This document shows positions 1,865-56,864 of a DNA stretch of 64,000 nt, in pieces. Positions within the stretch are counted from its first letter, which is position 1. The number at the start of each line of letters is the position of its first letter. The DNA is from an uncultured Chitinophaga sp. (GTDB lineage Bacteria; Bacteroidota; Bacteroidia; Chitinophagales; Chitinophagaceae), in contig CAYUCU010000003.1 in assembly GCA_964443345.1 (NCBI GenBank), positions 5,413 to 69,412 of the forward strand, in the 5' to 3' direction. The position numbers and the translations under genes were made by a program. The notes beneath the pieces were generated by a model. The model made no database searches. It was not told the DNA's origin and saw only the letters and a list, made by a program, of their open reading frames with translations.

Positions 1865-2404
1865 TCAGTTTCTGCTGGGGAAGATCCCCTCAATACAAAT
1901 AATATAGTTCATCCCTAAGTAAGGGGGCATATTGCTGAAGGGTTGGTTGCCACCTGTTAACCCAATTGTTACTGTCCCTCCCAATGGGGCCATGTTTATC
2001 AGGTCATCTGCGGCGGCACTGTAAAAAGTACCGGGGCCCATGCGTCTTCCTGTTGGGTCTGATCCTAATGTGCCATCACCTGCTGCCTGTACTACTAAGG
2101 TATTGGTAACGGCATGCGTATGTGAAGGCAGATTAGTGCTTAAAAGTGTGGTGCTTGGTGTACCGGACATTTCACCCAGGTCCACACTTGGTAAACCAGG
2201 GCCCTGACCTGTACCGAGAGCTACTCTGCCCCTGAAGTCGGGTACACCAAAAGTAGTTTGACCATTTCCGCCGTAGGTAGTTCCCACAAGTGCGAAAAAG
2301 GCCGTGTTTTGAGCAATAGACATTATCTGACCCTGGCAAAAAAGCCATGATCTGGGTGCAAAATTGCCCGCAAACATGCGGATCTCTGCAATTGTTCCTT
2401 CCAT
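1865..2404 (-). CDS. Phage tail-collar domain protein (microcystin-dependent protein MdpB-like), copy 2
   Basis: Start reset to MEGTIAEIRMFAGNFAP (ATG 2404), 179 aa. Collar motifs GTTYGGNGQTTF, PDFRGR and C-terminal MPPYLGMNYIIC..GIFPSRN. Confidence 0.9.
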   Translation of the reverse strand: MEGTIAEIRMFAGNFAPRSWLFCQGQIMSIAQNTAFFALVGTTYGGNGQTTFGVPDFRGRVALGTGQGPGLPSVDLGEMSGTPSTTLLSTNLPSHTHAVTNTLVVQAAGDGTLGSDPTGRRMGPGTFYSAAADDLINMAPLGGTVTIGLTGGNQPFSNMPPYLGMNYIICIEGIFPSRN

Positions 2405-2445
2405 ATAAAATAGTTTTAAGTAATAAAAAGAATGTGTTACTGGTA

Positions 2446-2985
2446 TTAGTTTCTCGATGGGAAAATACCAAACATGCAAATGATATAATTCATACCAAGA
2501 TAAGGAGGCATGATGCTGAACGGCTGACTACCTCCTGTATTTCCAATGGCAATGGTACCTCCCAGGGGGGCCATGTTTATCAGATCGTCTGCAGCGGCGC
2601 TATAAAAAGTACCGGGGCCCAGGCGTCTTCCGCTGGGATCTGACCCTAATGTGCCATCGCCTGCTGCCTGTACTACTAAGGTATTGGTAACGGCATGCGT
2701 ATGTGAAGGCATCGTGTTTTGAGTAAGCGTTACTGTTGGTGTTCCCGCAAGCTCACCAAGAACAATGTTTGGTAAACCAGGCCCTTGTCCGGTACCTACA
2801 GCTACCCGGCTTCTGAAATCTGGTAATGCAAAAGTGGTTTGCCCGTTTCCACCATAAGTGGTGCCTAATAAAGAGAATAGAGCGGTGTTTTGCGCAATAG
2901 GTAAAATTTGCGCAGCACAGAATGCCCAGTTGCGTGGAGCAAATGTTCCGGCAAACATCCTTATTTCGGCGATGGTTCCTTCCAT
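2446..2985 (-). CDS. Phage tail-collar domain protein (MdpB-like), copy 1
   Basis: 179 aa with the same motifs. Tandem paralog offset 581 bp from copy 2. Confidence 0.9.
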   Translation of the reverse strand: MEGTIAEIRMFAGTFAPRNWAFCAAQILPIAQNTALFSLLGTTYGGNGQTTFALPDFRSRVAVGTGQGPGLPNIVLGELAGTPTVTLTQNTMPSHTHAVTNTLVVQAAGDGTLGSDPSGRRLGPGTFYSAAADDLINMAPLGGTIAIGNTGGSQPFSIMPPYLGMNYIICMFGIFPSRN

Positions 2986-40688: not shown

Positions 40689-41852
40689 TCAAAAAGGTTT
40701 TCCGTGGGTCTTTCGAATCAGCCAATTAACCAGCCGCGGAAAAGGCCTGATGCAGGTAATAAACAAATTCGTCAGCAGGGGATTGCCAAATAAGCGTTGT
40801 ATCCTTCGTCCCATCTTTAAGCGGCCGGCAAATTTCCGTTGCCATTGAAGCGTATATCTTTTCTCCATTTTCTCCCGGGTTGTTTTTCCCTGCAAAAAAT
40901 GGTGGATATGCACAGCCGCCAGTTTGCTGCCATGCAGCGCCATGCTCATCCCGTTTCCGCATAGCGGCGTTATCATACCAGCTGCATCACCTATCATTAG
41001 CACATGGTTCTCTACCTGCGATTTTTTATCAAAGCTTATTTGTGAAATGGTAAGCGGCGCTGCCGGTTTGTTTGCTTCAGCAAAGATCTTTTTCAAATGA
41101 GGGTTACGGCTTAAGATGGTTTGTTCCATTATTGCAATATCACCATTGCTTTTCTGCAAGTTACCGGCGGTGGTTAAGTAACAAAGATTATACTCGTCGC
41201 CTTCTATTTTTACAATACCGCAATACCCGTCCTTAAAATTGTGCAATGCAATAGTGTCCGTTGCAAAAGCTCCTTTGATATGATACTTTACGCCAATATA
41301 GTTATTCAACTTGTTTTTGGCAGCCATACTGAATGGCCGTTTCCATTTTATATCAATATTGCTGCGCTTGCCATAGGTGCCGCATACCAGTTTGGCAGTG
41401 TATGCCTGTTCAGCCGTATCAATGGTGAATTCATCTGCTGAAAACCGTACATCATTCACTTTAGTATTCTCTTTCAATATCACTCCGGCCTCCCTCGCCA
41501 ATTGCGCCAATGTATCATCTAATTTATACCGGCTGATGCCAAAGCCTCCAAGCGGCATATGCTGCTGCAATAATTTGCCTTTCACTGATGATACCTCCAA
41601 TTGTGTAATGATCGGCACGTGCATTCCATCCAGGTCCACACCAAGATCATTTAGAAAATCCCATGCCTCCAGGCTGATGTATTCGCCACATACTTTATGA
41701 AATGGGTATTGCTCTTTTTCAAAAAGAATGATGCGGTGACCCAGTCTTGCTAACTGAACAGATAATGAAAGTCCTGCCAGGCCGCCACCCACAATGGCTA
41801 CATCATATTGTTTGTCCTTGTTCAACAAAAACTTATTAAATGCCCGAAGCAA
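40689..41852 (-). CDS. FAD-dependent oxidoreductase (geranylgeranyl reductase / halogenase-like)
   Basis: DVAIVGGGLAG, HKVCGEYIS, IGDAAGMITPLCGNGMSMA. Confidence 0.88.
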   Translation of the reverse strand: MLRAFNKFLLNKDKQYDVAIVGGGLAGLSLSVQLARLGHRIILFEKEQYPFHKVCGEYISLEAWDFLNDLGVDLDGMHVPIITQLEVSSVKGKLLQQHMPLGGFGISRYKLDDTLAQLAREAGVILKENTKVNDVRFSADEFTIDTAEQAYTAKLVCGTYGKRSNIDIKWKRPFSMAAKNKLNNYIGVKYHIKGAFATDTIALHNFKDGYCGIVKIEGDEYNLCYLTTAGNLQKSNGDIAIMEQTILSRNPHLKKIFAEANKPAAPLTISQISFDKKSQVENHVLMIGDAAGMITPLCGNGMSMALHGSKLAAVHIHHFLQGKTTREKMEKRYTLQWQRKFAGRLKMGRRIQRLFGNPLLTNLFITCIRPFPRLVNWLIRKTHGKPF

Positions 41853-42531
41853 CTAACCATCGGAAAGCCCATTTCCAGGTTATGCTATGTTTTTCAATGC
41901 CCGCCTGTGCCAATAGTTGCTGCCAGTCTTTCTTTTTAAAGCTTCTTGCCACAGAAAGGCAGGCATCATTTTTAACAAGGTAAGATTTACTGAAAAATTT
42001 CGTGATGTATTTTATAAGATAGTAAGCCAGCCAATGCCGGTGCAGGTCGTTGATAAAAAAACCCCTTCGGCTGTTTTGTTGCAGCCATTGCAGCATGGGC
42101 ACCAGTTGTTCATTGGTAAAATGATGGCAAAACAGGGAAGAGAAAATAATATCGGGTTGGCTTTCCCCAAATTGAACAACCGCATAATCACTGCATATCC
42201 ACTGGCAGGGAAGCTGCGGGTATTGCTGTTTGGCAAATGCGATACACTCCGCATTCATATCTATTCCGATAAAGCTAACGGGGATTTGATGCCTGGTGCA
42301 ATATTTATGAATAGCAAAAAGATTGTCGCCACCGCCGCAGCCGATCTCACAAACAGTGACCGGCTCTTTACTGATCAGTAATTGTTTCAGGCCTTTTATT
42401 GTAATGGCATGTCCCCCAAGCCTTGTGTTGATGATATTCAATTCCTTTAAGGTTTGCGCCATCGCATCAAACGAAATAGCATCTCCATCCATTAATTCTT
42501 TTTGGTAACTGCGGTGCAGGAGGTTTATCAT
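41836..42531 (-). CDS. Class I SAM-dependent methyltransferase
   Basis: CEIGCGGGD, FIGIDMN, FSSLFCHHF, FINDLHR. Confidence 0.88.
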   Translation of the reverse strand: MINLLHRSYQKELMDGDAISFDAMAQTLKELNIINTRLGGHAITIKGLKQLLISKEPVTVCEIGCGGGDNLFAIHKYCTRHQIPVSFIGIDMNAECIAFAKQQYPQLPCQWICSDYAVVQFGESQPDIIFSSLFCHHFTNEQLVPMLQWLQQNSRRGFFINDLHRHWLAYYLIKYITKFFSKSYLVKNDACLSVARSFKKKDWQQLLAQAGIEKHSITWKWAFRWLVASGI

Positions 42532-43610
42532 GAAGACAAAATAAGCGTTTCCATTGTTAATCCCGGGCCAAAAGCCGCCCCAAAGATCTTATTTGGCTGC
42601 TGGTTGTTCAAGTCCTTCATGATCTTCTCCAGCACAAATAATACGGTAGGTGAGGACATATTACCATATTCTTTCAGCACATCATAACAGGGCTGCAATT
42701 GTCCGTTGGTAAAGCCCAGGCTGCTGTGTACTGATTCCAGTATCTTTTTCCCCCCGGGATGTATGCACCAGTGGCTGATGTTTTCCTTACTAAGATTCGC
42801 TGCTGTTAATGCATTTTGTACCAGCTCTTCAAAATTCTCTTCTATCATTTCTGCTACATAGCTGCTGAGTGTCATCAAAAAACCGGTGGAAGAAAGTTCC
42901 CAGGCCATATCCGGTTTCCCTTTTAAAGCAACGGTGGAATAAAAATTATCAATTTGTAATCCCTGCTGCTCATTATCCCCGCTTACCAATACAGCCGCTG
43001 CCCCATCTGAAAATAGCATGCTGCTGGTGATATTGTCTGTGGTATTTTCTTTTTGAAAATGAAGGGTGCACAATTCTGTGCAAACGATCAGTACGTTAGC
43101 CTTTTTATCTGCTTTACAAAAAGCATCTGCTATTTTCAATGCATGAATAGCAGCATAGCAACCCATAAAGTTTACCGAGGTGCGAAATGTAGTGGCCGGC
43201 AATTGTAATAATTCGAGTAATTCTAAATCAAGGCCCGGTGCACTCATACCGGTGCAGCTTACGGTGATCAGGTGCGTAATCTCATTTTCGGGAAATTTTT
43301 CCACACATTTTTGGATGGCTTGCAGGGATAGTGGCGCTGCTTCTTTCTGAAACCATTTCATCCGTTGTTCCAGGTTGGGAAAAGGTTCCAGGTTTTCAGA
43401 GGGGCTGTAAAATTGCCATTCGCCGGCAAAGAGACTATAATCCGGGATCACCGAATAGCGGGTCTCAATGCCTCCCTGTTTATATAAGAATCTTAATTTT
43501 CTTTTATCTGCCTCATTTAGTGCATAGACCCGCTGCATAAAATCCAGGATATCTTCCTGTTTATGCTTGTAAGCCGGAACGGCAGTTCCTATTGATAGTA
43601 TTTTACTCAA
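42528..43610 (-). CDS. Type III polyketide synthase
   Basis: Cys-His-Asn triad in FMGCYAA, HPGG and GNMSS. AFGPGLT. TTG start overlaps the UbiA stop. Confidence 0.93.
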   Translation of the reverse strand: MSKILSIGTAVPAYKHKQEDILDFMQRVYALNEADKRKLRFLYKQGGIETRYSVIPDYSLFAGEWQFYSPSENLEPFPNLEQRMKWFQKEAAPLSLQAIQKCVEKFPENEITHLITVSCTGMSAPGLDLELLELLQLPATTFRTSVNFMGCYAAIHALKIADAFCKADKKANVLIVCTELCTLHFQKENTTDNITSSMLFSDGAAAVLVSGDNEQQGLQIDNFYSTVALKGKPDMAWELSSTGFLMTLSSYVAEMIEENFEELVQNALTAANLSKENISHWCIHPGGKKILESVHSSLGFTNGQLQPCYDVLKEYGNMSSPTVLFVLEKIMKDLNNQQPNKIFGAAFGPGLTMETLILSS

Positions 43611-44466
43611 AAAACCTCCAGGTTAATAAAATAATGAATGCGATGTTGGTACAGATAGCTGCCAGCCAGTTCATTTTCATGGTGTTCTTAAAATTGGCCT
43701 CCAGCACATCTTTTCTCACCTTCCAGAACCACTGTATGAAATAAACGATGATTGGCACGAAAAAGATGCTAACGACCAATAATTTACCCGTTTCACCCTT
43801 ATTGATAAAAAATTGTGCCATGAATACCCAGGCCAATGCATAAATGATTGCACAAAAAACAAACGTACCGGTATAGCCCAGTTTATAACTGATGGTCTTT
43901 ACGCCGTCGGCCAGGTCCTGCTGGTGCTGGTAGATCTGTGTAAGCGGGTAAAAGCCACCGATGAGTAAGGCACAGATCGCCATTCCCTGCCAGGGTATGA
44001 AAAAGCGGGTGTCTATATTACTTCCATAATACACCAGGCCGAATGTAAGTGCGCCCTGGAAAATAATTACGGTGAGGTAACCGATAACGGGGAATTTTTT
44101 TAACCTGATGCCCCTGTAACTATAGGCTTTGGAAGCGCCAATATATAACAGCATAAACACCGGTATGAACGGATGAATCAATGCACTCAGCAAGATCGCT
44201 GTAATATCCAATACAATTGTAAGCAAATAAAGTTGACGGGAGGGCGGTGGTGGTTGTTCAATGCCGCCGATGCTTTCCGTATCCCGGTCCATATAACTAT
44301 TGTATCCGTTACTGGCAGGATAAATTAAAAAATGAAGGATAACAAATAGCAGCGCTGCCTTCCACCAATTGATATTTGGCACTTGTGACAAAGCAAAAAA
44401 ATATAACGGAGATAAAAAGATCGAAAACGGTATCCGCAACAACTTAATGGTTGATGATGAAAGCAT
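43603..44466 (-). CDS. UbiA family prenyltransferase
   Basis: NGYNSYMDRDTE and QHQQDLADGVKT Asp-rich motifs, multiple TM helices. Confidence 0.88.
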   Translation of the reverse strand: MLSSSTIKLLRIPFSIFLSPLYFFALSQVPNINWWKAALLFVILHFLIYPASNGYNSYMDRDTESIGGIEQPPPPSRQLYLLTIVLDITAILLSALIHPFIPVFMLLYIGASKAYSYRGIRLKKFPVIGYLTVIIFQGALTFGLVYYGSNIDTRFFIPWQGMAICALLIGGFYPLTQIYQHQQDLADGVKTISYKLGYTGTFVFCAIIYALAWVFMAQFFINKGETGKLLVVSIFFVPIIVYFIQWFWKVRKDVLEANFKNTMKMNWLAAICTNIAFIILLTWRFFE

Positions 44467-49493: not shown

Positions 49494-49590
49494 CTCCCCT
49501 TGCTTTTTCCTCCTTATGACAGCAGAAGCGATCAAAAAAAGCCGGCTTTTTTCAAGCCGGCCGTCGTGTTGATATTGGGTTCTAAGTATC

Positions 49591-50532
49591 TTATTTTTTT
49601 AAACTTAAGCTTCTGTTGATGGTGAATCCGAAAGCAAACTGACCGTCTTTGATCCAGCTGTTATTGCGGGCCAGGTGATCAATGTTGGATGCATCAGTGG
49701 TGTTGCCAACAAAAAACTGGAACAGGTGACCGCCGGTGTTGATCTCTAAACCTGCAGAAAGCATATCGGGGCTGTAGTTGATAATGGCGCCATTTTTAGT
49801 GACCAGGTTTTCATGCATATTCAATTGCCGGGCATATTCCAGTGTTAAATTTAACTTGGAGGTCAGCTTATATTTTCCTGCCATTCCTAATGACCATACC
49901 AGGTTACTGTTGTTGATGCCATAAGGGACAACATTAAAATGGATCAATGTAGGCATCAGTTGTAAGGAGAGCTTATTAGAAAATTTTCTGGCGATCAGTA
50001 ACTGGTGCATAAACGACCAGCGGTTATCAGTAAACTCATCGGCAGTGGAAAGTCCTGTATAAATATTGGCCACGGAGTACCAGCCTAATGTAACGGGAAT
50101 ATTCCGGGCGCCGGTTTGCTGCCTGAGGATCTTAAACTTGGCCCATCCTTCAAAAACAGCCCTTCCGCTTGCAGCAATACCTACATTAGCAAAGCTGGCT
50201 GGTGAGTAATCAAATGAAAGATAGGTATTAGCGATACCGGCATTAAGTCCGAAAAAATGAGCTGCATTCTGCTGAAACCGTTTACCGGAACCTGCAGGGG
50301 CCAGATCTTTATTCCAGAAATAGCCAAAGTGGTGATTGATCATAAACTGCAGGTTGCCTTTAGTTACGATCTCTACACTCTGCATGTTGATCACCTTGGT
50401 AGAGTTGAAGGTAGCTCTTGTAAACTTTTGTTTGGGGGCTTCTGGTGCTGCTGCAGTATCGGGAGCGTCCTGAGCAATAGAAAGGGTGCAAAGGCCCAGT
50501 ACAACGATCAGGAGCGATAAAATCTTTTTCAT
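49591..50532 (-). CDS. DUF5777-family outer-membrane beta-barrel protein
   Basis: Signal peptide, TFNSTKVINMQS, QLLIARKF, LQLMPT, INTGGHLFQFF, FGFTINR near the C-terminus. Confidence 0.8.
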   Translation of the reverse strand: MKKILSLLIVVLGLCTLSIAQDAPDTAAAPEAPKQKFTRATFNSTKVINMQSVEIVTKGNLQFMINHHFGYFWNKDLAPAGSGKRFQQNAAHFFGLNAGIANTYLSFDYSPASFANVGIAASGRAVFEGWAKFKILRQQTGARNIPVTLGWYSVANIYTGLSTADEFTDNRWSFMHQLLIARKFSNKLSLQLMPTLIHFNVVPYGINNSNLVWSLGMAGKYKLTSKLNLTLEYARQLNMHENLVTKNGAIINYSPDMLSAGLEINTGGHLFQFFVGNTTDASNIDHLARNNSWIKDGQFAFGFTINRSLSLKK

Positions 50533-50578
50533 AATGCCTGTTTTTATTTTAAAAACAATGTTTAGTTTTTGTTGGTGT

Positions 50579-51199
50579 TTACTGTGGCTGTCCCTGTAAT
50601 ATCCATTCTTTGAATTTATTGATGGTACAAGTGGTAAGGCTTAAAGGACCGCCGGGGTGGCCCTGGCTGCCGCCGCTGTTCATAATAGCACTGATGGTAT
50701 TTTTTTCAGCCACCATCTTATTATAATCCAGGGTAATGGCTAAACCACCATGGCAGGTTGCTCCTTTGCAACCGCTGGTATAGATCGGTAAAATATCCAA
50801 AGTGTAGCGGATAGTTCCGGTTACAGTGCAGCCAGCTCCATCATCATAAGGATCGCCTTGTTCTATCCATCTTTTAATGATGTTTTTTTCATTGGCAGCA
50901 AATTCAATTCCGCCACCACCGGGGTGTTTACCCACGAGCCTTGACATAGAATCAAAATAGGCTCTCCGGGAAAGAATGGCATCATAAAACACTGTATCAA
51001 AATGAGAGAACTGCACAGCCCTTGTGCCAATTCCATTGTTATGGCAACCGCAGGGGCCGGCTGTTATGATCGGCACCACTTCACTTCTGAATGAAACCCT
51101 GGGAAGGGCAGTAATGTCTTCTTTATTTTTATAACAGGATGACAATGCATAGATAATCATGGTCGTCATCATTGCTGTTACTAATATTCTTGTTTTCAT
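50579..51199 (-). CDS. Diheme cytochrome c-like lipoprotein with atypical motifs (CXCH, CX4CH)
   Basis: Lipobox LSSC. Two repeats of [VSF/IRY]..[EV/DI].PI...C..CH...HPGG...WI.QG. Confidence 0.72.
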   Translation of the reverse strand: MKTRILVTAMMTTMIIYALSSCYKNKEDITALPRVSFRSEVVPIITAGPCGCHNNGIGTRAVQFSHFDTVFYDAILSRRAYFDSMSRLVGKHPGGGGIEFAANEKNIIKRWIEQGDPYDDGAGCTVTGTIRYTLDILPIYTSGCKGATCHGGLAITLDYNKMVAEKNTISAIMNSGGSQGHPGGPLSLTTCTINKFKEWILQGQPQ

Positions 51200-51229
51200 A
51201 TCCTGAAATTTTAGAATGATTTTATTGGA

Positions 51230-52420
51230 TTACCTCCTGATGATAGTTCCTGACTTCCTGTATTTGAATATGCCCACATTAGCCGTTCCGTATTTCCATA
51301 CATCTGGCACATTGGGATCAGCAAAGTACCATGCCTTGATCAGGGCTACTTCATTTGGTTTCAATCCGCCATCGCCATAGGCCATATCGCCCTGGTGAGA
51401 TGTTGCAAAGACATTAGTAAAGGGATTGGCCAATAACAAAGTAGAGTCACATCTTGAAACCATAGAGCTGCTTACATTCAGATAATTGCCTTTTGCATAA
51501 TACTGCACCAGTGTTACCGGGTCGGTATATTGCACACTGGAATTACTTCTGGCACTTTTTGGATACATAATATCCATCAGGATGTCGTCATAATTCTGCA
51601 GCGGGCCTCTTGTGCTAAGTGCAGATCTTGGGGTAGTAAATGTTTTCCATGGACGGAAGCTGGCATAAGCCACTGTATCAGAATAGAATTTTTTTACGCT
51701 GTCTTTATATGCTGTCCAAACCTGGTTGCGCAGTGTGGCATTGGAAAGCTGACAGTATACTGTTATTGCGCCTGTAACAGGGTTGATATAAGTGAACTGT
51801 GTGGTGTCTGCATTGGTCAATGTACCAAGCAATCCTTTGCGGGCCCATCCGCCAGTGGCCGTGGCCTGATTGTGACAGTTGGCAGAACCGCATCCATCTA
51901 CTATTAAGCGGATAGCAGCAGGCCTGAAATCTGAAAGATCAGGTCTTTCTTTTGCGCCATTTTTGATCCAGTTATAAATAAGGCCCTTGTCAGACGTATT
52001 CAGCTCATGACTTGAAGCCACAGGAGGCATCGCCTTATTGAAATCATTGGTGGTAATATATTCCCACAGCTTGCTTCCATTTGGATTGCCGGGTGTAACA
52101 AACTTCATGATCTCGGCATACGTATCAAATTTTGGGGCAATAGGCCCGCCATGACAATTGGAGGTGCCACAATACTCATGAATCACTGTTTGCACACCCC
52201 TGTACTTGATCTTGTCATTTATATCCGGGGTAGCATCAGAAGGCGTGATGGTGTTGCTTTCATAAAATGCAGCAAATACTGTGGAATCGGCCGCCCCGGT
52301 ATAGGATCTGTCCAGATCTTTTACAAGAACACCCTCCTTAGTACACTGAAAAACAGCAGTTGAAAGAAATACACCACAAAGAATTAAGACCGCTGTTTGG
52401 ATAGAAGAAACTTTTTTCAT
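51230..52420 (-). CDS. Cytochrome c-like lipoprotein with two CX4CH motifs
   Basis: Lipobox-like VFQC. CGTSNCH...AMPP...NWIKNGA (planctomycete cytochrome C-like) and CGSANCH. Confidence 0.72.
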   Translation of the reverse strand: MKKVSSIQTAVLILCGVFLSTAVFQCTKEGVLVKDLDRSYTGAADSTVFAAFYESNTITPSDATPDINDKIKYRGVQTVIHEYCGTSNCHGGPIAPKFDTYAEIMKFVTPGNPNGSKLWEYITTNDFNKAMPPVASSHELNTSDKGLIYNWIKNGAKERPDLSDFRPAAIRLIVDGCGSANCHNQATATGGWARKGLLGTLTNADTTQFTYINPVTGAITVYCQLSNATLRNQVWTAYKDSVKKFYSDTVAYASFRPWKTFTTPRSALSTRGPLQNYDDILMDIMYPKSARSNSSVQYTDPVTLVQYYAKGNYLNVSSSMVSRCDSTLLLANPFTNVFATSHQGDMAYGDGGLKPNEVALIKAWYFADPNVPDVWKYGTANVGIFKYRKSGTIIRR

Positions 52421-52537
52421 AAAAAGCCAGTTTAACTGATTGAAAATTGATACTGGTAAGAGCTATGCTTTAAAAACTAGTTTTCAAAAGTAGCCTGGGT
52501 CTCATTGACAGTTTTATGACAAGGGCCTGTGTTAAAC

Positions 52538-52652
52538 ATGACTTTTGTCACATTGGCTGCTAAGGGGTGTCAGTTTACACGCTTCTGTGACATTTCTCAC
52601 TTTGCTCCTTGACGTCTGTCATGAAACAGGCCATTCGCCATGAATAAGTTGC
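52538..52652. promoter_or_regulatory. Three Crp/Fnr-like TGA-N6-TCA boxes and a -7-like element in the divergent promoter region
   Basis: ATGACTTTTGTCAC at 52538-51, TGTGACATTTCTCAC at 52586-600, TTGACGTCTGTCAT at 52609-22, TAAGTTGC at 52645-52. Confidence 0.6.
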
Positions 52653-52686
52653 ATCACCTTTTTTTACTCTAAAACAAACCTCAACC

Positions 52687-52911
52687 ATGGGCAATACTAA
52701 AAAATCAACAGACCAGTCCCGCCGCGGTTTTTTCTCTCATTTCCTGTCAAAAAAAGAAACAAGCACCGAAAAAATAAAGATGCTTACTGCTGAAGGTAAA
52801 TTGGTGGAAGTGGATAAAGCCGTGTTTGATGCTGCCACTAAAAATCAAAAAGCAACCAATAAAGACATCTACACCTGGATGAACAATCCCTCTAAAGAAA
52901 CCAACGAATAA
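52687..52911 (+). CDS. Small protein resembling the Tat/N-terminal segment of the downstream Fe-S protein
   Basis: SRRGFF and TEKIKMLTAEGKLVEVD, versus SRRDFI and TEKIKLLSPDGEIVEID in 52937-53905. Confidence 0.75.
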   Translation: MGNTKKSTDQSRRGFFSHFLSKKETSTEKIKMLTAEGKLVEVDKAVFDAATKNQKATNKDIYTWMNNPSKETNE

Positions 52912-52936
52912 ATTCTACTCACTTATATATATACAA

Positions 52937-53905
52937 ATGAAACAGGAAGAAATAAATGACAAAAGCCGGCGGGATTTTATAAAAACCGCCGCCATTGCAA
53001 CGGTGGCAACTGCTGCCTGCGGAAGCCTCGTCTGTTCCTGCTCTTCTAAAAAAGCTGCAGTTACTGAAAAGATAAAACTCCTTTCCCCGGATGGAGAAAT
53101 TGTGGAGATCGACTCCGCTTATCTTAATCATCATGAAAATATGGCTGTGTTGTCCCAGCACGAACAAAGAATAGGAATAGCAGGAAAAAAATTTGTAATG
53201 GTAGTGGACCTGGCCCGCTGCAAAAATGCCCGGAAGTGCATTACCGCCTGCCAAAAACATCACTACCGCCCCGAGGAAACAGAATGGCTTACTATAAAAT
53301 TGATGAAGGATAGTGATAAAGGGGCCCCCTACTGGTTTCCAAAACAGTGCTTCCATTGCGACAACCCTCCTTGCGTAAAAGTGTGTCCCGTGGATGCTAC
53401 ATTCAAAAGACAGGATGGCCTGGTATTAATAGACAATGAACGTTGTATCGGTTGTAAGTTTTGCATGGCTGCCTGCCCTTACTCTACCCGTGTATTCAAC
53501 TGGAACGAACCCGAATTGCCGCTGGATATCAAAAACCTGCCCTACTCTGCCGAAACCGGTGTGCCTGCCCAGGTAGGTACCGTGGAGAAATGTGATTTCT
53601 GTCCCGACAGGGCAAGAGAAGGTTTGCTTCCTCCTTGTGTGGAGGCCTGCCCCAACGGAGTATTTTATTTTGGTGATGAAAATGAGGATACTGTTACCAA
53701 TGGTGACGAAACAGTCAGCTTCACTCAATTAATAAAAGACCGTGCCGGGTACCGGTATATGGAAGAACTGGGTACCAAACCAAGAGTGTATTACCTGCCA
53801 CCAAAAGACAGGCAGTTCCCGGTGGAAAGAGGCTATGAATCATTATCTGATGATCTGAAAGAACGGTACAAAGAGTATAAAGACGTATTGGGAGAAAAGA
53901 AATAG
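52937..53905 (+). CDS. Tat-exported 4Fe-4S dicluster protein (NrfC/DsrO/HmcB-like)
   Basis: SRRDFIK signal. Cys groups CKNARKCITAC, CFHCDNPPCVKVCP, CIGCKFCMAACP, CDFC...PPCVEACP. Confidence 0.9.
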   Translation: MKQEEINDKSRRDFIKTAAIATVATAACGSLVCSCSSKKAAVTEKIKLLSPDGEIVEIDSAYLNHHENMAVLSQHEQRIGIAGKKFVMVVDLARCKNARKCITACQKHHYRPEETEWLTIKLMKDSDKGAPYWFPKQCFHCDNPPCVKVCPVDATFKRQDGLVLIDNERCIGCKFCMAACPYSTRVFNWNEPELPLDIKNLPYSAETGVPAQVGTVEKCDFCPDRAREGLLPPCVEACPNGVFYFGDENEDTVTNGDETVSFTQLIKDRAGYRYMEELGTKPRVYYLPPKDRQFPVERGYESLSDDLKERYKEYKDVLGEKK

Positions 53906-53947
53906 TGTGGCCGGTATTTTTCAACTTACTCAATGAATTAATTAATT

Positions 53948-55318
53948 ATGGAACTTAATACTTATCAACAGGAAGCCTTCAATTACCAGCGGAAGAATAT
54001 TGAAAAGTTTGGCAAAAAGAACTGGGCCTGGACCATCTTCTTCCTTCTCTGGATCATCGTTGGCGGATATGCCTTGTATTTACAAATTGCAAAAGGCCAT
54101 GGGGTAACGGGTATGCGGGATAATGTGGTATGGGGCCTGTTCATCGTCAATTTTATATTCTTTATCGGTATCAGCTATGCCGGGGCGATCATTGCCGGGT
54201 TATTACACCTTTTTAAAGTGCCCTGGGGCAAACCCATCATCCGTATTGCACAGCTGATGACGATCGTATCAGTTATCGTAGGACCGATATTTATTTTGCT
54301 TTGTGTAGGCCGGTTCGACCGCCTGCATCACCTGTTCATTTATCCACGGCTGCAATCTCCCATGACATGGGATGTACTGGCCATCCTAACTTATTTTGTC
54401 GGCAGCGTTCTATTCCTGTATATGGCATTGATAAAAGATTTCGCTGTGTACCGCGATGCCAAACTGAACATTCCAAAATGGAAACAACGGATGTATAAGT
54501 TCCTGGCAATAGGATACCGTGGCGCTGCCAGTCAGAAAAGACACCTGCTCATTTCACAGAACCTGCTGGCCATCATCATGATCCCGCTTTCTATTATTGT
54601 AAGTTCTATCCTCTCCTGGATATTTGGTATGACGCTGCGGCCGGGATGGCACAGCACTATCTTCGGCCCCTACTTCGTATTGGGTGCATTGTATTCTGGT
54701 TGTGGTGTGCTGATAGTTGCCATGTGGGTGTACAGAAAGATGTATAAACTTGAAACCTATTTTACCGACCGGCATTTCATTTATCTCGGTTATATCATAA
54801 TGGTGCTGGCCGCCGGTTATGGATACTTTACTTTCTCCGAATACTTCACCAGTTGGTTTGGCTCGGAAAAATGGGACAATGAAGTGATCAATAAATTATT
54901 CAATCCCGCAGCGTATGGCTGGTGGACATTGTTTGCTAATACAGCTGGCATCCTTTTACCCATACTTATTGTAGCGATACCAAAAACAAGAAAGCCTAAC
55001 CTTATTACACTGGCTGCCTTCCTGATGGTGATCGCCCTGTGGGTAAAACGGTATCTCATCATTGTTCCTACTCTGGAAACTCCGCTGCTTCCCATACAGG
55101 ACACCAGGGCCGCTTATGTTAAATACTCAGCTACCTGGCCAGAATGGGCGTTGACCTTTGCCGGTATTGCATCCTTCCTGTTGTTCTTTACCATTATGTC
55201 AAAGTTTGTAACGATTGTTCCTGTGTCAGGGCTGGAAGACACACACAAACCTTATGAACATGCCCACACTGAACATAACCACATAGAAACAAAAAAAGAA
55301 GAAGTTCATCCTGCATAA
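53948..55318 (+). CDS. NrfD/PsrC family integral membrane protein (ActC-like)
   Basis: WGLFIVNFIFFIGISYAG, VGRF, SPMTWD, PGWHSTIFGPYF, ~10 TM helices. Confidence 0.9.
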   Translation: MELNTYQQEAFNYQRKNIEKFGKKNWAWTIFFLLWIIVGGYALYLQIAKGHGVTGMRDNVVWGLFIVNFIFFIGISYAGAIIAGLLHLFKVPWGKPIIRIAQLMTIVSVIVGPIFILLCVGRFDRLHHLFIYPRLQSPMTWDVLAILTYFVGSVLFLYMALIKDFAVYRDAKLNIPKWKQRMYKFLAIGYRGAASQKRHLLISQNLLAIIMIPLSIIVSSILSWIFGMTLRPGWHSTIFGPYFVLGALYSGCGVLIVAMWVYRKMYKLETYFTDRHFIYLGYIIMVLAAGYGYFTFSEYFTSWFGSEKWDNEVINKLFNPAAYGWWTLFANTAGILLPILIVAIPKTRKPNLITLAAFLMVIALWVKRYLIIVPTLETPLLPIQDTRAAYVKYSATWPEWALTFAGIASFLLFFTIMSKFVTIVPVSGLEDTHKPYEHAHTEHNHIETKKEEVHPA

Positions 55319-55328
55319 AATTATTTTT

Positions 55329-56291
55329 ATGAAACAAATTCTTATATCAGCTTCACTAAAAAAATCCCGGCGGTTTATCCTCTTTGCAGGATTGATGGTA
55401 CTGTTGCTTACACCAGCTGGTCTTTTTGCACAAACAGACACCACAAAAACAACAGCTACTGAAGAACCTGCTGCCGCAGAAGAATCATCATTGATCTCTC
55501 CGACCATTGAATTCATCAGCGTTCAAAAAAGCAATAACACCATTGATCTGAAAGCTTCGCTGAGAGCCAAGATAAAAGGTTCGCTGACAAAGCTCCATAG
55601 CCTGAAGGTGAGATTCTACCTGATGAATGATACAATGGAACAGGAACTCGGAGCAGTAAATGCCGACATGAAAGGCGTAGCGCTGCTGAATGTAAAAGCG
55701 GATGCCATTACTCCTGATAAAGAAGGCAAACTGCATTTCAAAGCAGTCGTAGCCGGTAATAAATCAATGGAAGGAGCAAATGAAGAACTAACCATTAAAA
55801 GGGCCATACTTACCATTACCCCTGTAAAAGAAGATTCGTTGCTAAGTGTTTCCGTTAAACTGGTGGATATGGTAAGCGGAGTGGAAACCCCCGTAAAAGA
55901 AGCAGTTATCGGAATATTTGTTACCCGCTTATTCAATCCCCTGAAAGTGGTAGAAGCCACCACAGATGAAAATGGTGAGGCTTCTGTTGAATTTCCGGCC
56001 AACCTCCCGGGAGATGCAAAAGGCAATTTAACCCTGCTGGCCAGACTGGATGAAAGTGAGGTTTATGGCAACCTGGAAGCTTCTTCAGAGCAAAAATGGG
56101 GAGTTCCTGTTTCTAACTTAAATGAAGAACAGCCAAGGGCTTTATGGAGTTCACATCCCCCGATGTGGATGCTTATAACCTTTATTGTACTGATGGTGAC
56201 TGTATGGGGGCATTACATTGTTATCATATATGAACTGTTCCGTTTAAGAAAAGAGCAACCTCATGCACCTGTTGATGCAACTAATCCTTAA
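55329..56291 (+). CDS. Exported Ig-like protein with C-terminal TM anchor
   Basis: Signal peptide, beta-rich body (ATTDENGEASVEF), C-terminal TM PPMWMLITFIVLMVTVWGHY. Confidence 0.75.
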   Translation: MKQILISASLKKSRRFILFAGLMVLLLTPAGLFAQTDTTKTTATEEPAAAEESSLISPTIEFISVQKSNNTIDLKASLRAKIKGSLTKLHSLKVRFYLMNDTMEQELGAVNADMKGVALLNVKADAITPDKEGKLHFKAVVAGNKSMEGANEELTIKRAILTITPVKEDSLLSVSVKLVDMVSGVETPVKEAVIGIFVTRLFNPLKVVEATTDENGEASVEFPANLPGDAKGNLTLLARLDESEVYGNLEASSEQKWGVPVSNLNEEQPRALWSSHPPMWMLITFIVLMVTVWGHYIVIIYELFRLRKEQPHAPVDATNP

Positions 56292-56322
56292 TAAAACAAT
56301 ATCTTTAAATAGTAAAAAAACA

Positions 56323-56733
56323 ATGAAAATGAAAAAAAATGTAACTGTACTGATGTCATGCCTCTTTGCTGTTGGCTTCCTGGCTTTTGTACCAAAAAAC
56401 AGCGTACAGGATCCCTGGCCTGTTCCTGATGCATATAAAAACAAGGTAAATCCGCTTAAAGGCAATGTCGAATCTATCGCTACAGGCAAGACCCTTTACA
56501 ACCAGCATTGCAAGTCCTGTCATGGAACAAAAGGAAAAGGTGACGGACCTAAAGCATCCCAGTTAGATACTGAATGCGGCGATTTTACTAAAGCCTCTTT
56601 CCATGCACAGACAGATGGTTCCTTGTTTTACAAAACATACCAGGGAAGAAAAGATATGCCCTCTTATAAAACCAAGATACCAGATGCTAATGATATCTGG
56701 GCTGTGGTTAATTATATGAGAACATTGAAATAA
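56323..56733 (+). CDS. Monoheme class I cytochrome c
   Basis: Start MKMKKN (ATG 56323). NP..GKTLYNQHCKSCHG and distal MP. Confidence 0.9.
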   Translation: MKMKKNVTVLMSCLFAVGFLAFVPKNSVQDPWPVPDAYKNKVNPLKGNVESIATGKTLYNQHCKSCHGTKGKGDGPKASQLDTECGDFTKASFHAQTDGSLFYKTYQGRKDMPSYKTKIPDANDIWAVVNYMRTLK

Positions 56734-56757
56734 TTCCTGTTTCTTTTATGAGGCAAG

Positions 56758-56785
56758 CAAAGACCGTTTTATTAAGCGGTCTTTG
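56758..56785 (+). terminator. Probable terminator ending the Fe-S/NrfD operon
   Basis: CAAAGACCGTTT-TATT-AAGCGGTCTTTG then TCATTTTT. Confidence 0.65.
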
Positions 56786-56864
56786 TCATTTTTATACCCT
56801 TGTATAATTTTTCTTAGCAAATGCAAAAATCCTACAACTTTGCAATTCAACATTCGCATCCGCT

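What the first reader, a model, noticed from the sequence alone, without database searches (positions are those of the whole stretch)
49591..56733. Candidate undescribed trans-envelope electron-transfer system: porin plus atypical cytochromes divergent from an NrfCD-like module
Seen, left arm (minus): two cytochrome-c-like lipoproteins and a DUF5777 beta-barrel. Seen, right arm (plus): Tat mimic, Tat Fe-S protein, NrfD, Ig-like TM protein, monoheme cytochrome c, terminator. The shared 266-bp spacer has Crp/Fnr-like boxes. There is no molybdopterin subunit, NrfA, ActA-type pentaheme or second NrfD (ActF), so it is not canonical Psr, Nrf or alternative complex III. Known: NrfCD-type modules exchange electrons with quinones, and porin-cytochrome pairs carry electrons across outer membranes. 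Inference: a low-O2-induced quinone -> Fe-S -> cytochrome c -> outer-membrane conduit to or from an extracellular partner, in a family regarded as mainly aerobic.
Basis: partly seen in the sequence, partly recalled or inferred. Interest (0 to 1): 0.85.

Follow-up and report, generated by a model that had tools for sequence, protein, structure and literature searches.

The report
Quinol-to-outer-membrane cytochrome module in Bacteroidota
Eight genes in a Chitinophagaceae genome appear to form one undescribed electron-transfer system, linking an inner-membrane quinol-oxidising complex to haem lipoproteins and a small outer-membrane barrel; whether electrons actually leave the cell is still unproven.

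Summary

The two arms belong together:
- Every sufficiently long locus of the window's Chitinophagaceae clade has the same divergent layout (14 of 14).
- A distant Bacteroidota clade has orthologues of six parts (haem lipoprotein, DUF5777 barrel, cytochrome c, Fe-S protein, NrfD, the 320-aa protein) in one co-directional operon.
- That operon also carries multihaem cytochromes and a cytochrome b, and sits next to an FNR-like regulator gene with the same DNA boxes.

The lipoproteins are diverged class I c-type cytochromes. CX4CH sits in the same alignment column as CXXCH in relatives.

Three corrections:
- The barrel is a small 12-strand barrel, not an Mtr-type porin.
- The barrel-plus-lipoprotein pair is a phylum-wide module that usually occurs without NrfCD, with a YceI protein instead.
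- Catalytic-subunit-free NrfCD modules feeding cytochromes have precedents (Geobacter Cbc4; a Melioribacter proposal).

A quinone–Fe-S–cytochrome c–outer-membrane cytochrome chain is well supported by context. Haem binding, the side of the membrane the lipoproteins face, the direction of flow and any crossing of the outer membrane are inference. I judge it a new variant of a known kind, of fairly high interest.

The parts
49540..49562 (-). Terminator-like hairpin that closes the left arm
   Evidence: Nine-pair stem with six G-C pairs, followed by a T run.
49591..50532 (-). DUF5777 outer-membrane beta-barrel, 313 aa, predicted to have 12 strands
   Evidence: Pfam PF19089 E 2.3e-61. AlphaFold2 pLDDT 89.3, pTM 0.84, 12 strands and a confident N-terminal segment at residues 36-59. 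Foldseek against the PDB finds only generic small barrels with TM below 0.5. Invariant residues across 61 diverse representatives are H67, F69, H269, F271, G302, F303 and R307.
50579..51199 (-). 206-aa lipoprotein with two class-I-cytochrome-c-like domains: domain 1 has CGCH, domain 2 has CX4CH, and both have HPG where relatives have the Met ligand
   Evidence: The lipoprotein-family profile matches residues 1-117 (E 2.7e-15) and 122-205 (E 1.7e-12). The motifs are strictly conserved in 21 homologues. Lipobox is LSSC.
51230..52420 (-). 396-aa lipoprotein with two CX4CH cytochrome-c-like domains: domain 1 at residues 58-158 with an MPP Met ligand, domain 2 split by an insertion of about 140 aa
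   Evidence: Pfam PSCyt1 5.7e-5. Profile hit 2.1e-14 for domain 1. C84, C89, H90, M131, C177, C182 and H183 are invariant in 29 sequences. The mature N-terminus C-T-K-E-G resembles the Bacteroidota surface-export signal C-X-K-(D/E)2 (PMC5080379).
52421..52686 (.). Shared 266-bp divergent control region with Crp/Fnr-type palindromes at 52539-52550 and 52610-52621, a TGTGA-N6-TCAC site at 52586-52600 and a TGACA direct repeat at 52505-52522
   Evidence: The boxes are conserved in alignments of 13 loci. They occur upstream of the lipoprotein operon in 13 of 14 group A loci and 5 of 6 group B loci, against a background of 0.03 per 300 bp.
52687..52911 (+). 74-aa protein, a paralogue of the Fe-S protein's N-terminus that keeps the SRRxF motif but lacks the hydrophobic core of a signal peptide
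   Evidence: Alignment with 10 orthologues and with Fe-S protein N-termini. It is called as a gene in related genomes.
52937..53905 (+). Tat-exported NrfC/DsrO/ActB2-type iron-sulfur protein with 15 Cys in four cluster motifs
   Evidence: Pfam Fer4_11 and a TAT signal. NCBIfam DsrO 187.6 bits against a cutoff of 200. PDB matches PsrB 2.8e-28 and the ActB C-terminal domain 1.7e-19. Cys motifs.
53948..55318 (+). NrfD-family integral membrane subunit of the ActC type, with about 10 membrane helices; the presumed quinol/quinone site
   Evidence: Pfam NrfD 1.6e-30. The best solved relatives are ACIII ActC: 6f0k_C 5.1e-54 over residues 19-432. Hydropathy.
55329..56291 (+). 320-aa accessory subunit: signal sequence, an ectodomain of about 240 aa, and a C-terminal membrane helix with a conserved WGHY motif
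   Evidence: No Pfam or PDB sequence hit. It always follows NrfD. Orthologues at 30-34% identity follow NrfD in the second operon type.
56323..56733 (+). Periplasmic class I monohaem cytochrome c (CKSCH, Met ligand in KDMP); the ORF can be read from 56263 but probably starts at 56323
   Evidence: Pfam Cytochrom_C 1.2e-12. Homologue N-termini. Identity to the cytochrome c of the second operon type is 43-55%.
56757..56786 (+). Terminator-like hairpin that closes the right arm
   Evidence: Thirteen-pair stem followed by a T run.

Best explanation
The eight genes form one respiratory electron-transfer module under a Crp/Fnr-family regulator.

Right arm: an inner-membrane quinol:cytochrome c oxidoreductase with no catalytic molybdoenzyme.
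- An ActC-type NrfD subunit exchanges electrons with menaquinol.
- A Tat-exported Fe-S protein with four cluster motifs carries them into the periplasm.
- A conserved single-pass 320-aa subunit completes the complex.
- A soluble class I monohaem cytochrome c takes the electrons onward.

Left arm: the outer-membrane end of the chain.
- Two lipid-anchored proteins, each with two cytochrome-c-type domains.
- A small 12-strand DUF5777 barrel that works with them.

The chain most likely runs quinol -> Fe-S -> cytochrome c -> outer-membrane cytochromes. It would serve an acceptor at or beyond the outer membrane when oxygen is scarce.

Shown here: the domain identities, the co-conservation of the parts, the shared regulatory boxes and the barrel's size.
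Inferred: haem attachment, which side of the membrane the lipoproteins face, the direction of flow, the signal the regulator senses, and above all whether and how electrons cross the outer membrane.
For: One system:
- The same divergent eight-gene layout occurs, with different flanking genes, in 14 of 14 informative loci of the clade.
- In a distant Bacteroidota clade the order is: lipoprotein, DUF5777 barrel, cytochrome c, heptahaem cytochrome, cytochrome b, Fe-S protein, NrfD, and a protein of about 297 aa, all in one co-directional operon. This was seen at seven loci.
- Identities to the window's proteins: Fe-S 56-58%, NrfD 50-53%, cytochrome c 43-55%, 320-aa protein 30-34%, barrel 24%, lipoprotein 28%.
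- All 8 distinct loci reached from the NrfD or Fe-S side carry the barrel and a lipoprotein.

Cytochromes:
- A profile of 49 single-domain family members hits cytochrome c6 (1e-6), FoxE (4.5e-6) and PccH (1.6e-5).
- The Cys-Cys-His motif and the 'MP' align with the haem motif and the Met ligand.
- 26 of 49 members hit Pfam Cytochrome_CBB3.
- CXXCH and CX4CH occupy the same alignment column.
- The window's lipoproteins match this profile.

Regulation:
- TGAY-N4-RTCA boxes are conserved in the spacer.
- The same boxes lie upstream of all six second-type operons with DNA in hand, next to a Crp/Fnr gene.
- In the L048 regulator, the one aligned, Cys residues fall at or near E. coli FNR C16, C20, C29 and C122.

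Outer end:
- One second-type operon starts with an 8-haem cytochrome that carries a type IX secretion tail, so it is presumably exported to the cell surface.

Precedent:
- NrfCD-like modules without a catalytic subunit have been proposed as quinol:cytochrome oxidoreductases in Geobacter (Cbc4; 10.1101/2025.04.14.648717) and in Melioribacter (PMC3534657).
Against: - There is no experimental evidence of any kind, and no usable transcript data.
- The barrel has only 12 strands and a confident N-terminal segment that may plug it. It cannot house a cytochrome the way MtrB does.
- No redox cofactor is known that could bridge the roughly 25-30 angstrom membrane span.
- CX1CH is not a known haem-attachment motif. 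CX4CH may need a dedicated haem lyase, and none was seen nearby.
- The structure prediction of the 396-aa protein failed (pLDDT 42).
- Most DUF5777-plus-lipoprotein modules in Bacteroidota lie far from any NrfCD: 0 of 9 in group B and almost none of 59 in group C. The pair therefore does not depend on this particular feeder.
- The N-terminal surface-export-like motifs are only partial matches (PMC5080379).
- No Crp/Fnr regulator gene was found among the window's scanned ORFs.
Confidence: 0.5

Rival explanations
1. The chain is the same but ends in the periplasm. The lipoprotein cytochromes face the periplasm, anchored to the inner leaflet of the outer membrane. The DUF5777 barrel is either a narrow channel for a small substrate or metal ion, or simply a docking partner. 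The system would then reduce or oxidise a small solute that enters the periplasm, for example chelated Fe(III), Mn, or a reactive oxygen or nitrogen species. No electron would cross the outer membrane.
For: The barrel has 12 strands, like small solute channels (Tsx, NanC) and polypeptide-threading barrels. The lipoproteins have one or two domains and a class-I-type fold with a Met or His sixth ligand, typical of periplasmic carriers. The surface-export motifs match only partly. The module is widespread in aerobic Bacteroidota.
Against: One second-type operon encodes a multihaem cytochrome with a type IX secretion tail, which suggests a cell-surface end point. Lys at +3 after the lipidated Cys is conserved in all listed homologues of the 396-aa protein, as in surface lipoproteins (PMC5080379). 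Six-coordinate haems argue for electron transfer rather than catalysis.
Confidence: 0.27
2. The chain runs in reverse. An extracellular or periplasmic donor such as Fe(II) or Mn(II) is oxidised at the outer-membrane cytochromes. Electrons pass through the cytochrome c to a terminal oxidase, and the NrfCD module allows uphill flow into the quinone pool.
For: The lipoprotein family resembles FoxE, an Fe(II)-oxidising cytochrome. Met/His ligation usually gives high-potential haems. The organism occurs in biofilter and drinking-water metagenomes. One DUF5777 protein is fused to an N-terminal CXXCH-containing segment, which recalls the fused cytochrome-porin Cyc2.
Against: Chitinophagaceae are heterotrophs and have little need for reverse electron flow (general knowledge). 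FNR-type control and the low-potential-type multihaem cytochromes of the second operon type fit reductive respiration better. The FoxE similarity is weak and covers only the generic cytochrome fold.
Confidence: 0.1
3. The two arms are functionally unrelated neighbours. The right arm is a reduced ACIII-like quinol:cytochrome c oxidoreductase that feeds a terminal oxidase. The left arm is an outer-membrane module with a different, possibly non-redox, role such as handling lipids or isoprenoids together with YceI proteins.
For: DUF5777-plus-lipoprotein modules usually occur without NrfCD and with a YceI-like protein. NrfD is closest to ACIII ActC.
Against: Six orthologous parts sit in a single operon in a distant clade. 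The divergent layout is kept while the flanks change. One Chitinophagaceae locus (L016) keeps the layout even though its NrfD is only 36% identical. The lipoproteins are cytochrome-c-type.
Confidence: 0.08
4. Some or all of the CX4CH and CX1CH domains of the window's two lipoproteins have lost haem. They would then bind a metal through Cys/Cys/His/His or form a disulfide, acting as structural or sensing parts rather than electron carriers.
For: CX1CH has no precedent as a haem c site (general knowledge). In the 206-aa protein the Met ligand is replaced by His in both domains. No dedicated haem lyase gene was seen in the cluster.
Against: The Cys, His and distal-ligand positions are invariant across 21 to 29 homologues. 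CX4CH alternates with CXXCH at the same position in relatives. CX4CH binds haem in cytochromes c3 (general knowledge).
Confidence: 0.15

Closest known systems
Geobacter sulfurreducens Cbc4 (CbcS, CbcT, CbcU) and related Cbc inner-membrane complexes
   Same: An NrfC-like four-cluster Fe-S protein and an integral membrane subunit work with a c-type cytochrome and no molybdopterin catalytic subunit. The complex is proposed to be a quinol:cytochrome c oxidoreductase that feeds periplasmic carriers in extracellular electron transfer (10.1101/2025.04.14.648717).
   Different: Cbc4 has a membrane-anchored NapC/NirT-type tetrahaem cytochrome. The window has a soluble monohaem class I cytochrome and an extra 320-aa single-pass subunit. 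The phylum differs, and no direct sequence comparison with CbcT or CbcU was made here. The role of Cbc4 itself is unproven.
Alternative complex III (ActABCDEF)
   Same: ActC is the closest solved relative of the window's NrfD (6f0k_C, 5.1e-54, near full length). The Fe-S protein matches the C-terminal Fe-S domain of ActB. A monohaem cytochrome c is the electron exit. The function is quinol:cytochrome c oxidoreductase.
   Different: There is no pentahaem ActA, no molybdopterin-like ActB1 domain, no second NrfD-type subunit (ActF), and no recognisable ActD. The genomic partner is an outer-membrane module rather than an oxidase.
DsrOP part of DsrMKJOP, and QrcCD of Qrc
   Same: The best NCBIfam matches are DsrO (187.6 bits) and DsrP/QrcD. 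These are periplasm-facing Fe-S plus NrfD modules that connect menaquinone to periplasmic cytochromes.
   Different: The scores fall below the family cutoffs (200 for DsrO, 350 for DsrP). DsrM, DsrK, DsrJ, QrcA and QrcB are absent, and there is no sulfur-metabolism context.
Stand-alone NrfCD of Melioribacter roseus (Mros1571/1572)
   Same: An NrfCD pair without a catalytic subunit in the Bacteroidetes/Chlorobi group. Its authors proposed that it gives electrons to periplasmic cytochromes and on to an outer-membrane Fe(III) reductase (PMC3534657).
   Different: That was only a genome-based proposal. No DUF5777 or lipoprotein-cytochrome partner was described, and orthology to the window's genes was not tested here.
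Porin-cytochrome conduits (MtrCAB, Pcc/OmbB-OmaB-OmcB) and the fused cytochrome-porin Cyc2
   Same: In concept, an outer-membrane barrel is encoded next to c-type cytochromes, some lipid-anchored, downstream of an inner-membrane quinol oxidase. One DUF5777 protein is fused to an N-terminal CXXCH-containing segment, as in Cyc2.
   Different: The barrel has 12 strands, against 16 for Cyc2, 26 for MtrB and about 20 for Pcc barrels (strand numbers from general knowledge). There is no homology, and MtrB does not appear among the top structural matches. The cytochromes have one or two domains and are class I, not deca- to dodecahaem.

Membership tests
Pfam DUF5777 (PF19089) outer-membrane barrel | Match to the family profile above its gathering score | tested here: met
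   207.6 bits against a cutoff of 23.1, E 2.3e-61, residues 42-308. A 12-strand barrel is predicted with pLDDT 89.
Class I c-type cytochrome (the two lipoproteins) | Cytochrome c fold with a Cys-X2-Cys-His haem motif and a distal Met or His ligand at the homologous positions | tested here: inconclusive
   The family profile hits cytochrome c6, FoxE and PccH with the motif and Met aligned, and the window's proteins match that profile. However, the window's motifs are CX4CH (three domains) and CX1CH (one domain), and the structure prediction failed.
Class I c-type cytochrome (the two lipoproteins) | Covalently bound haem | not testable with these tools
   This needs haem staining, spectra or mass spectrometry.
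Alternative complex III | ActC-type NrfD subunit | tested here: met
   The best PDB hits are ActC chains (6f0k_C 5.1e-54, 6lod_C, 8k9e_C, 6btm_C) over nearly the full length.
Alternative complex III | Pentahaem ActA, an ActB with a molybdopterin-like B1 domain, and a second NrfD-type subunit ActF | tested here: not met
   The cluster has no ORF with multiple CXXCH motifs. The Fe-S protein is 322 aa with ferredoxin domains only. There is a single NrfD.
Psr/Ttr/Nrf-type complexes (catalytic subunit plus NrfC plus NrfD) | A molybdopterin catalytic subunit or NrfA encoded with the NrfCD pair | tested here: not met
   None was found among the window's ORFs scanned with Pfam. None lies within 8-10 kb in nine gene-annotated related loci.
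DsrMKJOP | DsrO and DsrP equivalog scores, and presence of DsrM, DsrK and DsrJ | tested here: not met
   DsrO scores 187.6 against a cutoff of 200 and DsrP 79.3 against 350. No DsrM, DsrK or DsrJ genes are nearby.
Geobacter Cbc4-type quinol:cytochrome c oxidoreductase | Fe-S protein and integral membrane subunit together with a membrane-anchored NapC/NirT-type tetrahaem cytochrome | tested here: not met
   The window has no tetrahaem cytochrome. The second operon type has a heptahaem cytochrome with a C-terminal membrane helix and a cytochrome b instead. CbcT and CbcU were not compared directly. The resemblance is functional, taken from 10.1101/2025.04.14.648717.
Mtr/Pcc porin-cytochrome conduit | A large porin (20 strands or more) that encloses a multihaem cytochrome, plus an extracellular multihaem lipoprotein | tested here: not met
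   The barrel has 12 strands, and structural matches are only generic small barrels. The window has no multihaem cytochrome. A multihaem cytochrome with a type IX secretion tail is present in only one second-type locus.
Cyc2 fused cytochrome-porin | A monohaem cytochrome domain fused to the N-terminus of the barrel | tested here: not met
   The window has separate genes. One distant DUF5777 representative (P0300) is fused to a CXXCH-containing segment and a Reeler domain.
Crp/Fnr regulon | TTGAT-N4-ATCAA-type palindromes in the promoter region, conserved in orthologous loci | tested here: met
   Two boxes lie in the spacer, 2 of the 6 in 64 kb. They are conserved in 13 of 14 group A upstream regions, 5 of 6 group B upstream regions and all six second-type operons, against a background of 0.03 per 300 bp. 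Binding and the signal sensed were not testable.

The most novel reading that the evidence does not exclude
DUF5777 barrels together with monohaem cytochrome c lipoproteins are a new, phylum-wide kind of outer-membrane electron conduit in Bacteroidota, unrelated by descent to Mtr, Pcc or Cyc2. A 12-strand barrel, perhaps through its invariant His pair or through a threaded segment of its partner, would relay electrons between a periplasm-side and a surface-side cytochrome. Interchangeable feeders would supply it: an NrfCD-cytochrome c complex, as in the window, or a YceI-type carrier, as in most other lineages.
Probability: 0.25. Interest if true: 0.9.

Novelty: new variant of a known kind. 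Interest (0 to 1): 0.72.

Why it matters
Bacteroidota are abundant in soils, sediments, water treatment systems and guts, yet no route is known by which they move respiratory electrons to the outer membrane or beyond.

This analysis defines a testable candidate:
- A gene set conserved in two operon architectures.
- A phylum-wide barrel-plus-cytochrome pair, with about 1,000 DUF5777 representative clusters at 50% identity, that no paper in the searched library mentions.
- A likely FNR-type switch.

If the chain works as proposed, three things follow:
- Extracellular or envelope-level respiration would extend to a major phylum regarded as mostly aerobic or fermentative.
- A minimal ACIII/Cbc4-like quinol:cytochrome c oxidoreductase would be added to the known types.
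- A second function would be shown for small outer-membrane barrels.

It would also give haem-attachment biochemistry two unusual motifs to explain: CX4CH in a class I fold, and CX1CH.

Tried and rejected
- **Structure of the 396-aa lipoprotein.** AlphaFold2 with 29 close homologues gave pLDDT 42, which is unusable, so no fold search was made.
- **First genome scan.** I repeated it with 8 sequences.
- **Literature.** Searches for DUF5777 and PF19089 found nothing. Searches on extracellular electron transfer in Bacteroidota found no description of this cluster.
- **NosGH as a precedent.** I considered the NosGH-NosC1/C2 module of clade II nitrous oxide reductase clusters. I dropped it because NosGH resembles NapGH, not NrfCD (PMC3475470), and no nosZ gene is in the window.
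- **Transcript evidence.** The only candidate run (X19, kind unknown) held short fragments at low depth and says nothing about co-expression.
- **The 320-aa protein.** PDB sequence search found nothing.
- **A Crp/Fnr regulator gene in the window.** None was found among the ORFs scanned.
- **Not done.** I left the metagenome scan unused, because its best-80 output would have been filled with close relatives.

Full report
**1. What is in the window**

The window comes from a Chitinophagaceae (Ferruginibacter-like) genome. The best NrfD relatives are 78-91% identical and carry that label. A 15-kb MAG contig labelled 'Chitinophagaceae bacterium SF1_2_17' is 96-99% identical at protein level across the cluster. 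Matching DNA occurs in biofilter, drinking-water and freshwater metagenomes.

Left arm, minus strand:
- A DUF5777 protein (Pfam E 2.3e-61).
- A 206-aa lipoprotein and a 396-aa lipoprotein. Only the larger has a weak Pfam hit (PSCyt1, 5.7e-5).

Right arm, plus strand:
- A 74-aa protein.
- A Tat-signal Fe-S protein. Its best NCBIfam match is DsrO, at 187.6 bits, just under the cutoff of 200.
- An NrfD protein.
- A 320-aa protein with no family match.
- A monohaem cytochrome c.

Terminator-like hairpins close both ends. The flanking genes are unrelated housekeeping genes: asparaginase-like, penicillin amidase, an MFS transporter, MsrB and ArsC-like. No molybdopterin enzyme, NrfA, NosZ or multihaem cytochrome was found among the window's ORFs scanned with Pfam.

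**2. The right arm**

The closest solved relatives of the NrfD protein are the ActC subunits of alternative complex III (6f0k_C, E 5.1e-54, residues 19-432). ActF is far weaker. Hydropathy gives nine to ten membrane segments.

The Fe-S protein matches PsrB/NrfC-type proteins and the C-terminal Fe-S domain of ActB. Its mature part has 15 Cys in four motifs: CX5CX3C, CX2CX4CX3C, CX2CX2CX3C and CX2CX11CX3C. By inference that fits three [4Fe-4S] clusters and one [3Fe-4S] cluster.

The 320-aa protein has a signal sequence, an ectodomain of about 240 aa and a C-terminal helix with a strongly conserved PRALWS-HPP-WML-TF...VWGHY motif. It always follows NrfD. It has no sequence relative in the PDB.

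The cytochrome c has an ordinary signal peptide in most homologues, followed by a conserved KPWPVPD motif. It is probably soluble in the periplasm, and the true start in the window is probably the Met at 56323.

The 74-aa protein is a conserved paralogue of the Fe-S protein's N-terminus. It keeps SRRxF and the KIKMLTADGKLVEV segment but lacks the hydrophobic core of a signal peptide. Its role is unknown.

**3. The left arm**

AlphaFold2 with 61 diverse DUF5777 sequences gave a confident model (pLDDT 89.3, pTM 0.84). It has 12 strands and a well-ordered N-terminal segment at residues 36-59.

Foldseek against the PDB returned only generic small barrels: OmpG, FapF, Tsx, NanC, invasin and the autotransporter EstA. 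All had TM scores below 0.5, and MtrB was not among the top matches. The protein is a small outer-membrane barrel, not an Mtr-type sheath.

The two lipoproteins belong to one family. In other Bacteroidota its members are usually single-domain proteins of about 125 aa with these features:
- a lipobox followed by an acidic stretch (CYYDNEEDLY);
- a Cys-X2-Cys-His or Cys-X4-Cys-His motif in the same alignment column;
- a nearly invariant 'MP';
- a C-terminal WI..GA..NN.

A profile of 49 such proteins hits cytochrome c6 (1e-6), FoxE (4.5e-6), PccH (1.6e-5) and the cytochrome c subunits of bc1 and cbb3 complexes. The motif aligns with the haem-binding site and 'MP' with the Met ligand. Individually, 26 of 49 hit Pfam Cytochrome_CBB3.

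The same profile finds domains in the window's proteins:
- Two domains in the 206-aa protein (E 2.7e-15 and 1.7e-12).
- One clear domain in the 396-aa protein (E 2.1e-14).
- A second domain in the 396-aa protein, split by an insertion of about 140 aa.

In the 396-aa protein both CX4CH motifs and M131 are invariant in 29 sequences. In the 206-aa protein the first domain has a strictly conserved CGCH, the second has CX4CH, and both have HPG in place of MP.

The proteins are therefore diverged class I cytochrome-c-type domains. Whether all four still bind haem cannot be decided here. The structure prediction of the 396-aa protein failed.

**4. Are the two arms one system?**

I scanned one genome per species with a DUF5777 alignment. 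I then classified the neighbours of 84 barrels by BLAST and clustering. Three situations appear.

- **Group A** (barrel at least 55% identical; Ferruginibacter-like). All 14 loci with enough sequence have the full divergent layout, with varying flanks. One of them, L016, keeps the layout although its NrfD is only 36% identical.
- **Group B** (44-51% identical; other Chitinophagaceae and Sphingobacteriia). Homologues of both lipoproteins sit with a YceI-like protein and the barrel, and an OB-fold lipoprotein gene lies upstream. No NrfCD lies within the 7-10 kb available on either side (0 of 9).
- **Group C** (38% or less; all orders of Bacteroidota). One to three small haem-motif lipoproteins (52 of 59 loci) accompany the barrel, with YceI in 41 of 59 and the OB-fold protein in 34 of 59 (Pfam).

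The barrel-plus-cytochrome pair is thus a phylum-wide module that usually lacks an adjacent NrfCD.

The decisive evidence came from two Bacteroidales loci in that scan (L032, L048) and from looking up homologues of their Fe-S protein. Seven loci carry a single co-directional operon in this order:
1. an optional multihaem cytochrome;
2. a single-domain lipoprotein;
3. a DUF5777 barrel;
4. a cytochrome c;
5. a heptahaem cytochrome with a C-terminal membrane helix;
6. a cytochrome b (PF01292);
7. an Fe-S protein;
8. NrfD;
9. a protein of about 297 aa.

Identities to the window's proteins are 56-58% (Fe-S), 50-53% (NrfD), 43-55% (cytochrome c), 30-34% (320-aa protein), 24% (barrel) and 28% (lipoprotein). 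Six of the window's eight parts therefore recur as one operon in a distant clade.

All eight distinct loci reached from the NrfD or Fe-S side, in either architecture, carry the barrel and a lipoprotein. YceI and the OB-fold protein are absent wherever NrfCD is present. This is consistent with alternative ways of feeding the same outer-membrane module, but that reading is speculative.

In one second-type locus (L087) the first gene encodes an 8-haem cytochrome with a type IX secretion C-terminal domain. That points to a cell-surface end point in that lineage.

**5. Regulation**

The spacer holds two TGAY-N4-RTCA palindromes, 2 of the 6 in the 64-kb window, plus a TGTGA-N6-TCAC site. An alignment of 13 orthologous spacers conserves an ATGA-N6-TCA core and a TGACA-N6-TGACA repeat.

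The palindrome occurs within 300 bp upstream of the lipoprotein operon as follows:

| Group | Loci with the box |
|---|---|
| Group A | 13 of 14 |
| Group B | 5 of 6 informative loci |
| Group C | 3 of 50 |
| Background | 0.03 per 300 bp |

Two of the three group C loci are L032 and L048.

In the six second-type loci with DNA in hand, one or two TTGAYNNNNRTCAA boxes lie between the operon and an adjacent Crp/Fnr-family gene. I aligned one of those regulators (L048) with E. coli FNR, whose sequence I recalled from memory. Its Cys residues fall at or near FNR C16, C20, C29 and C122.

Control by a Crp/Fnr-type regulator is well supported. Oxygen as the signal is a reasonable inference for the second operon type. 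For the window it is an extrapolation, since no regulator gene was found among the scanned ORFs.

**6. Mechanism and its weak point**

The best reading is a chain from menaquinol at NrfD, through the Fe-S protein and the periplasmic cytochrome c, to the outer-membrane-anchored cytochromes.

Modules of this kind without a catalytic subunit have been proposed before as quinol:cytochrome oxidoreductases:
- Geobacter Cbc4 (10.1101/2025.04.14.648717).
- A stand-alone NrfCD in Melioribacter roseus, which its authors linked to a hypothetical outer-membrane Fe(III) reductase (PMC3534657).

The 2021 review of NrfD-type subunits does not list this subfamily (PMC8076601).

The unresolved step is the outer membrane. 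A plugged 12-strand barrel cannot enclose a cytochrome, and no cofactor is known within the membrane span. Three observations may bear on this:
- The barrel has two invariant His residues (H67 and H269), on strands that flank the strand carrying the invariant G302-F303.
- In the 13 homologues whose N-termini were listed, the 396-aa lipoprotein has Lys at +3 after the lipid-modified Cys, often followed by Asp or Glu. This resembles the Bacteroidota surface-export signal C-X-K-(D/E)2 (PMC5080379).
- One DUF5777 protein is fused to an N-terminal CXXCH-containing segment and a Reeler domain.

These are leads, not evidence. A periplasmic end point, with the barrel as a small-solute channel or anchor, remains a serious rival. 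Reverse flow from Fe(II) or Mn(II) is possible, given the habitat and the weak FoxE similarity.

**7. Verdict**

One system, a cytochrome-type left arm, Crp/Fnr boxes and the absence of a standard catalytic subunit all hold. The porin-cytochrome analogy, haem binding by the atypical motifs, low-oxygen induction and an extracellular partner are unproven.
- The system fails the membership tests for ACIII, Psr/Nrf, DsrMKJOP, Cbc4, Mtr/Pcc and Cyc2, while working like parts of several of them.
- I class it as a new variant of a known kind: an envelope-spanning respiratory chain built from unfamiliar outer-membrane parts. No paper in the searched library mentions DUF5777.

Noticed in passing
window 52687-52911 (+): A conserved 74-aa protein is a paralogue of the Fe-S protein's N-terminus. 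It keeps the twin-arginine SRRxF motif and the following KIKMLTADGKLVEV segment but has lost the hydrophobic core of the signal peptide. It is present in all 12 group A loci checked and absent from the second operon type. It may be an assembly or proofreading factor, or a decoy.
   Followed up: partly
window 49591-50532 (-), residues H67, F69, H269, F271, G302, F303, R307: Two His residues and a Gly-Phe pair are invariant across 61 DUF5777 representatives that are only about 35% identical. They lie on strands 1, 11 and 12, which should be neighbours in the closed barrel. This may be a cofactor or metal pocket.
   Followed up: partly
window 50579-51199 (-), residues 53-56 (CGCH): The first cytochrome-like domain of the 206-aa lipoprotein has a strictly conserved Cys-Gly-Cys-His, a CX1CH spacing with no known precedent for haem c attachment. 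In both domains a conserved His-Pro-Gly replaces the family's Met-Pro.
   Followed up: partly
Loci L018-L085 (for example L018:3496-4050, L050:8980-9417): In most Bacteroidota the DUF5777-plus-lipoprotein pair comes with a YceI-like protein (Pfam PF04264) and an OB-fold 'tRNA_anti-like' lipoprotein (PF12869). Both are missing exactly where NrfCD and the cytochrome c are present. They may be alternative electron feeders.
   Followed up: partly
Protein P0300 (a DUF5777 representative, 456 aa): An N-terminal segment with a CXXCH motif and a Reeler domain are fused to a DUF5777 barrel. This is reminiscent of the fused cytochrome-porin Cyc2 and of Reeler-domain ferric reductases.
   Followed up: no
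L087:4803-6317 (+): An 8-haem c-type cytochrome with a type IX secretion C-terminal domain is the first gene of a second-type operon. It is a candidate cell-surface cytochrome in Bacteroidota.
   Followed up: partly
L048:5706-6404 (+) and the equivalent genes in L086-L089: A Crp/Fnr-family regulator gene sits next to every second-type operon looked at. In the L048 regulator, Cys residues fall at or near E. coli FNR C16, C20, C29 and C122 in a pairwise alignment. L086 and L087 also have N-terminal CxxC-type motifs and a central Cys. TTGAYNNNNRTCAA boxes lie in the adjacent promoter regions.
   Followed up: partly
window 40689-44466 (-): A type III polyketide synthase, a methyltransferase, a UbiA prenyltransferase and an FAD-type enzyme lie in a row. 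This looks like a small aromatic-lipid or pigment biosynthesis cluster.
   Followed up: no
window 1865-2985 (-): Two tandem 179-aa proteins each carry a phage tail collar domain.
   Followed up: no
window 25652-27997 (+): A 781-aa protein combines an RnfD/NqrB-like membrane segment with a DUF2330 domain, an unusual fusion.
   Followed up: no
window 49591-56733 (whole cluster): Near-identical DNA is found mainly in biofilter metagenomes, and also in drinking-water and freshwater metagenomes. No usable RNA data set was found.
   Followed up: partly
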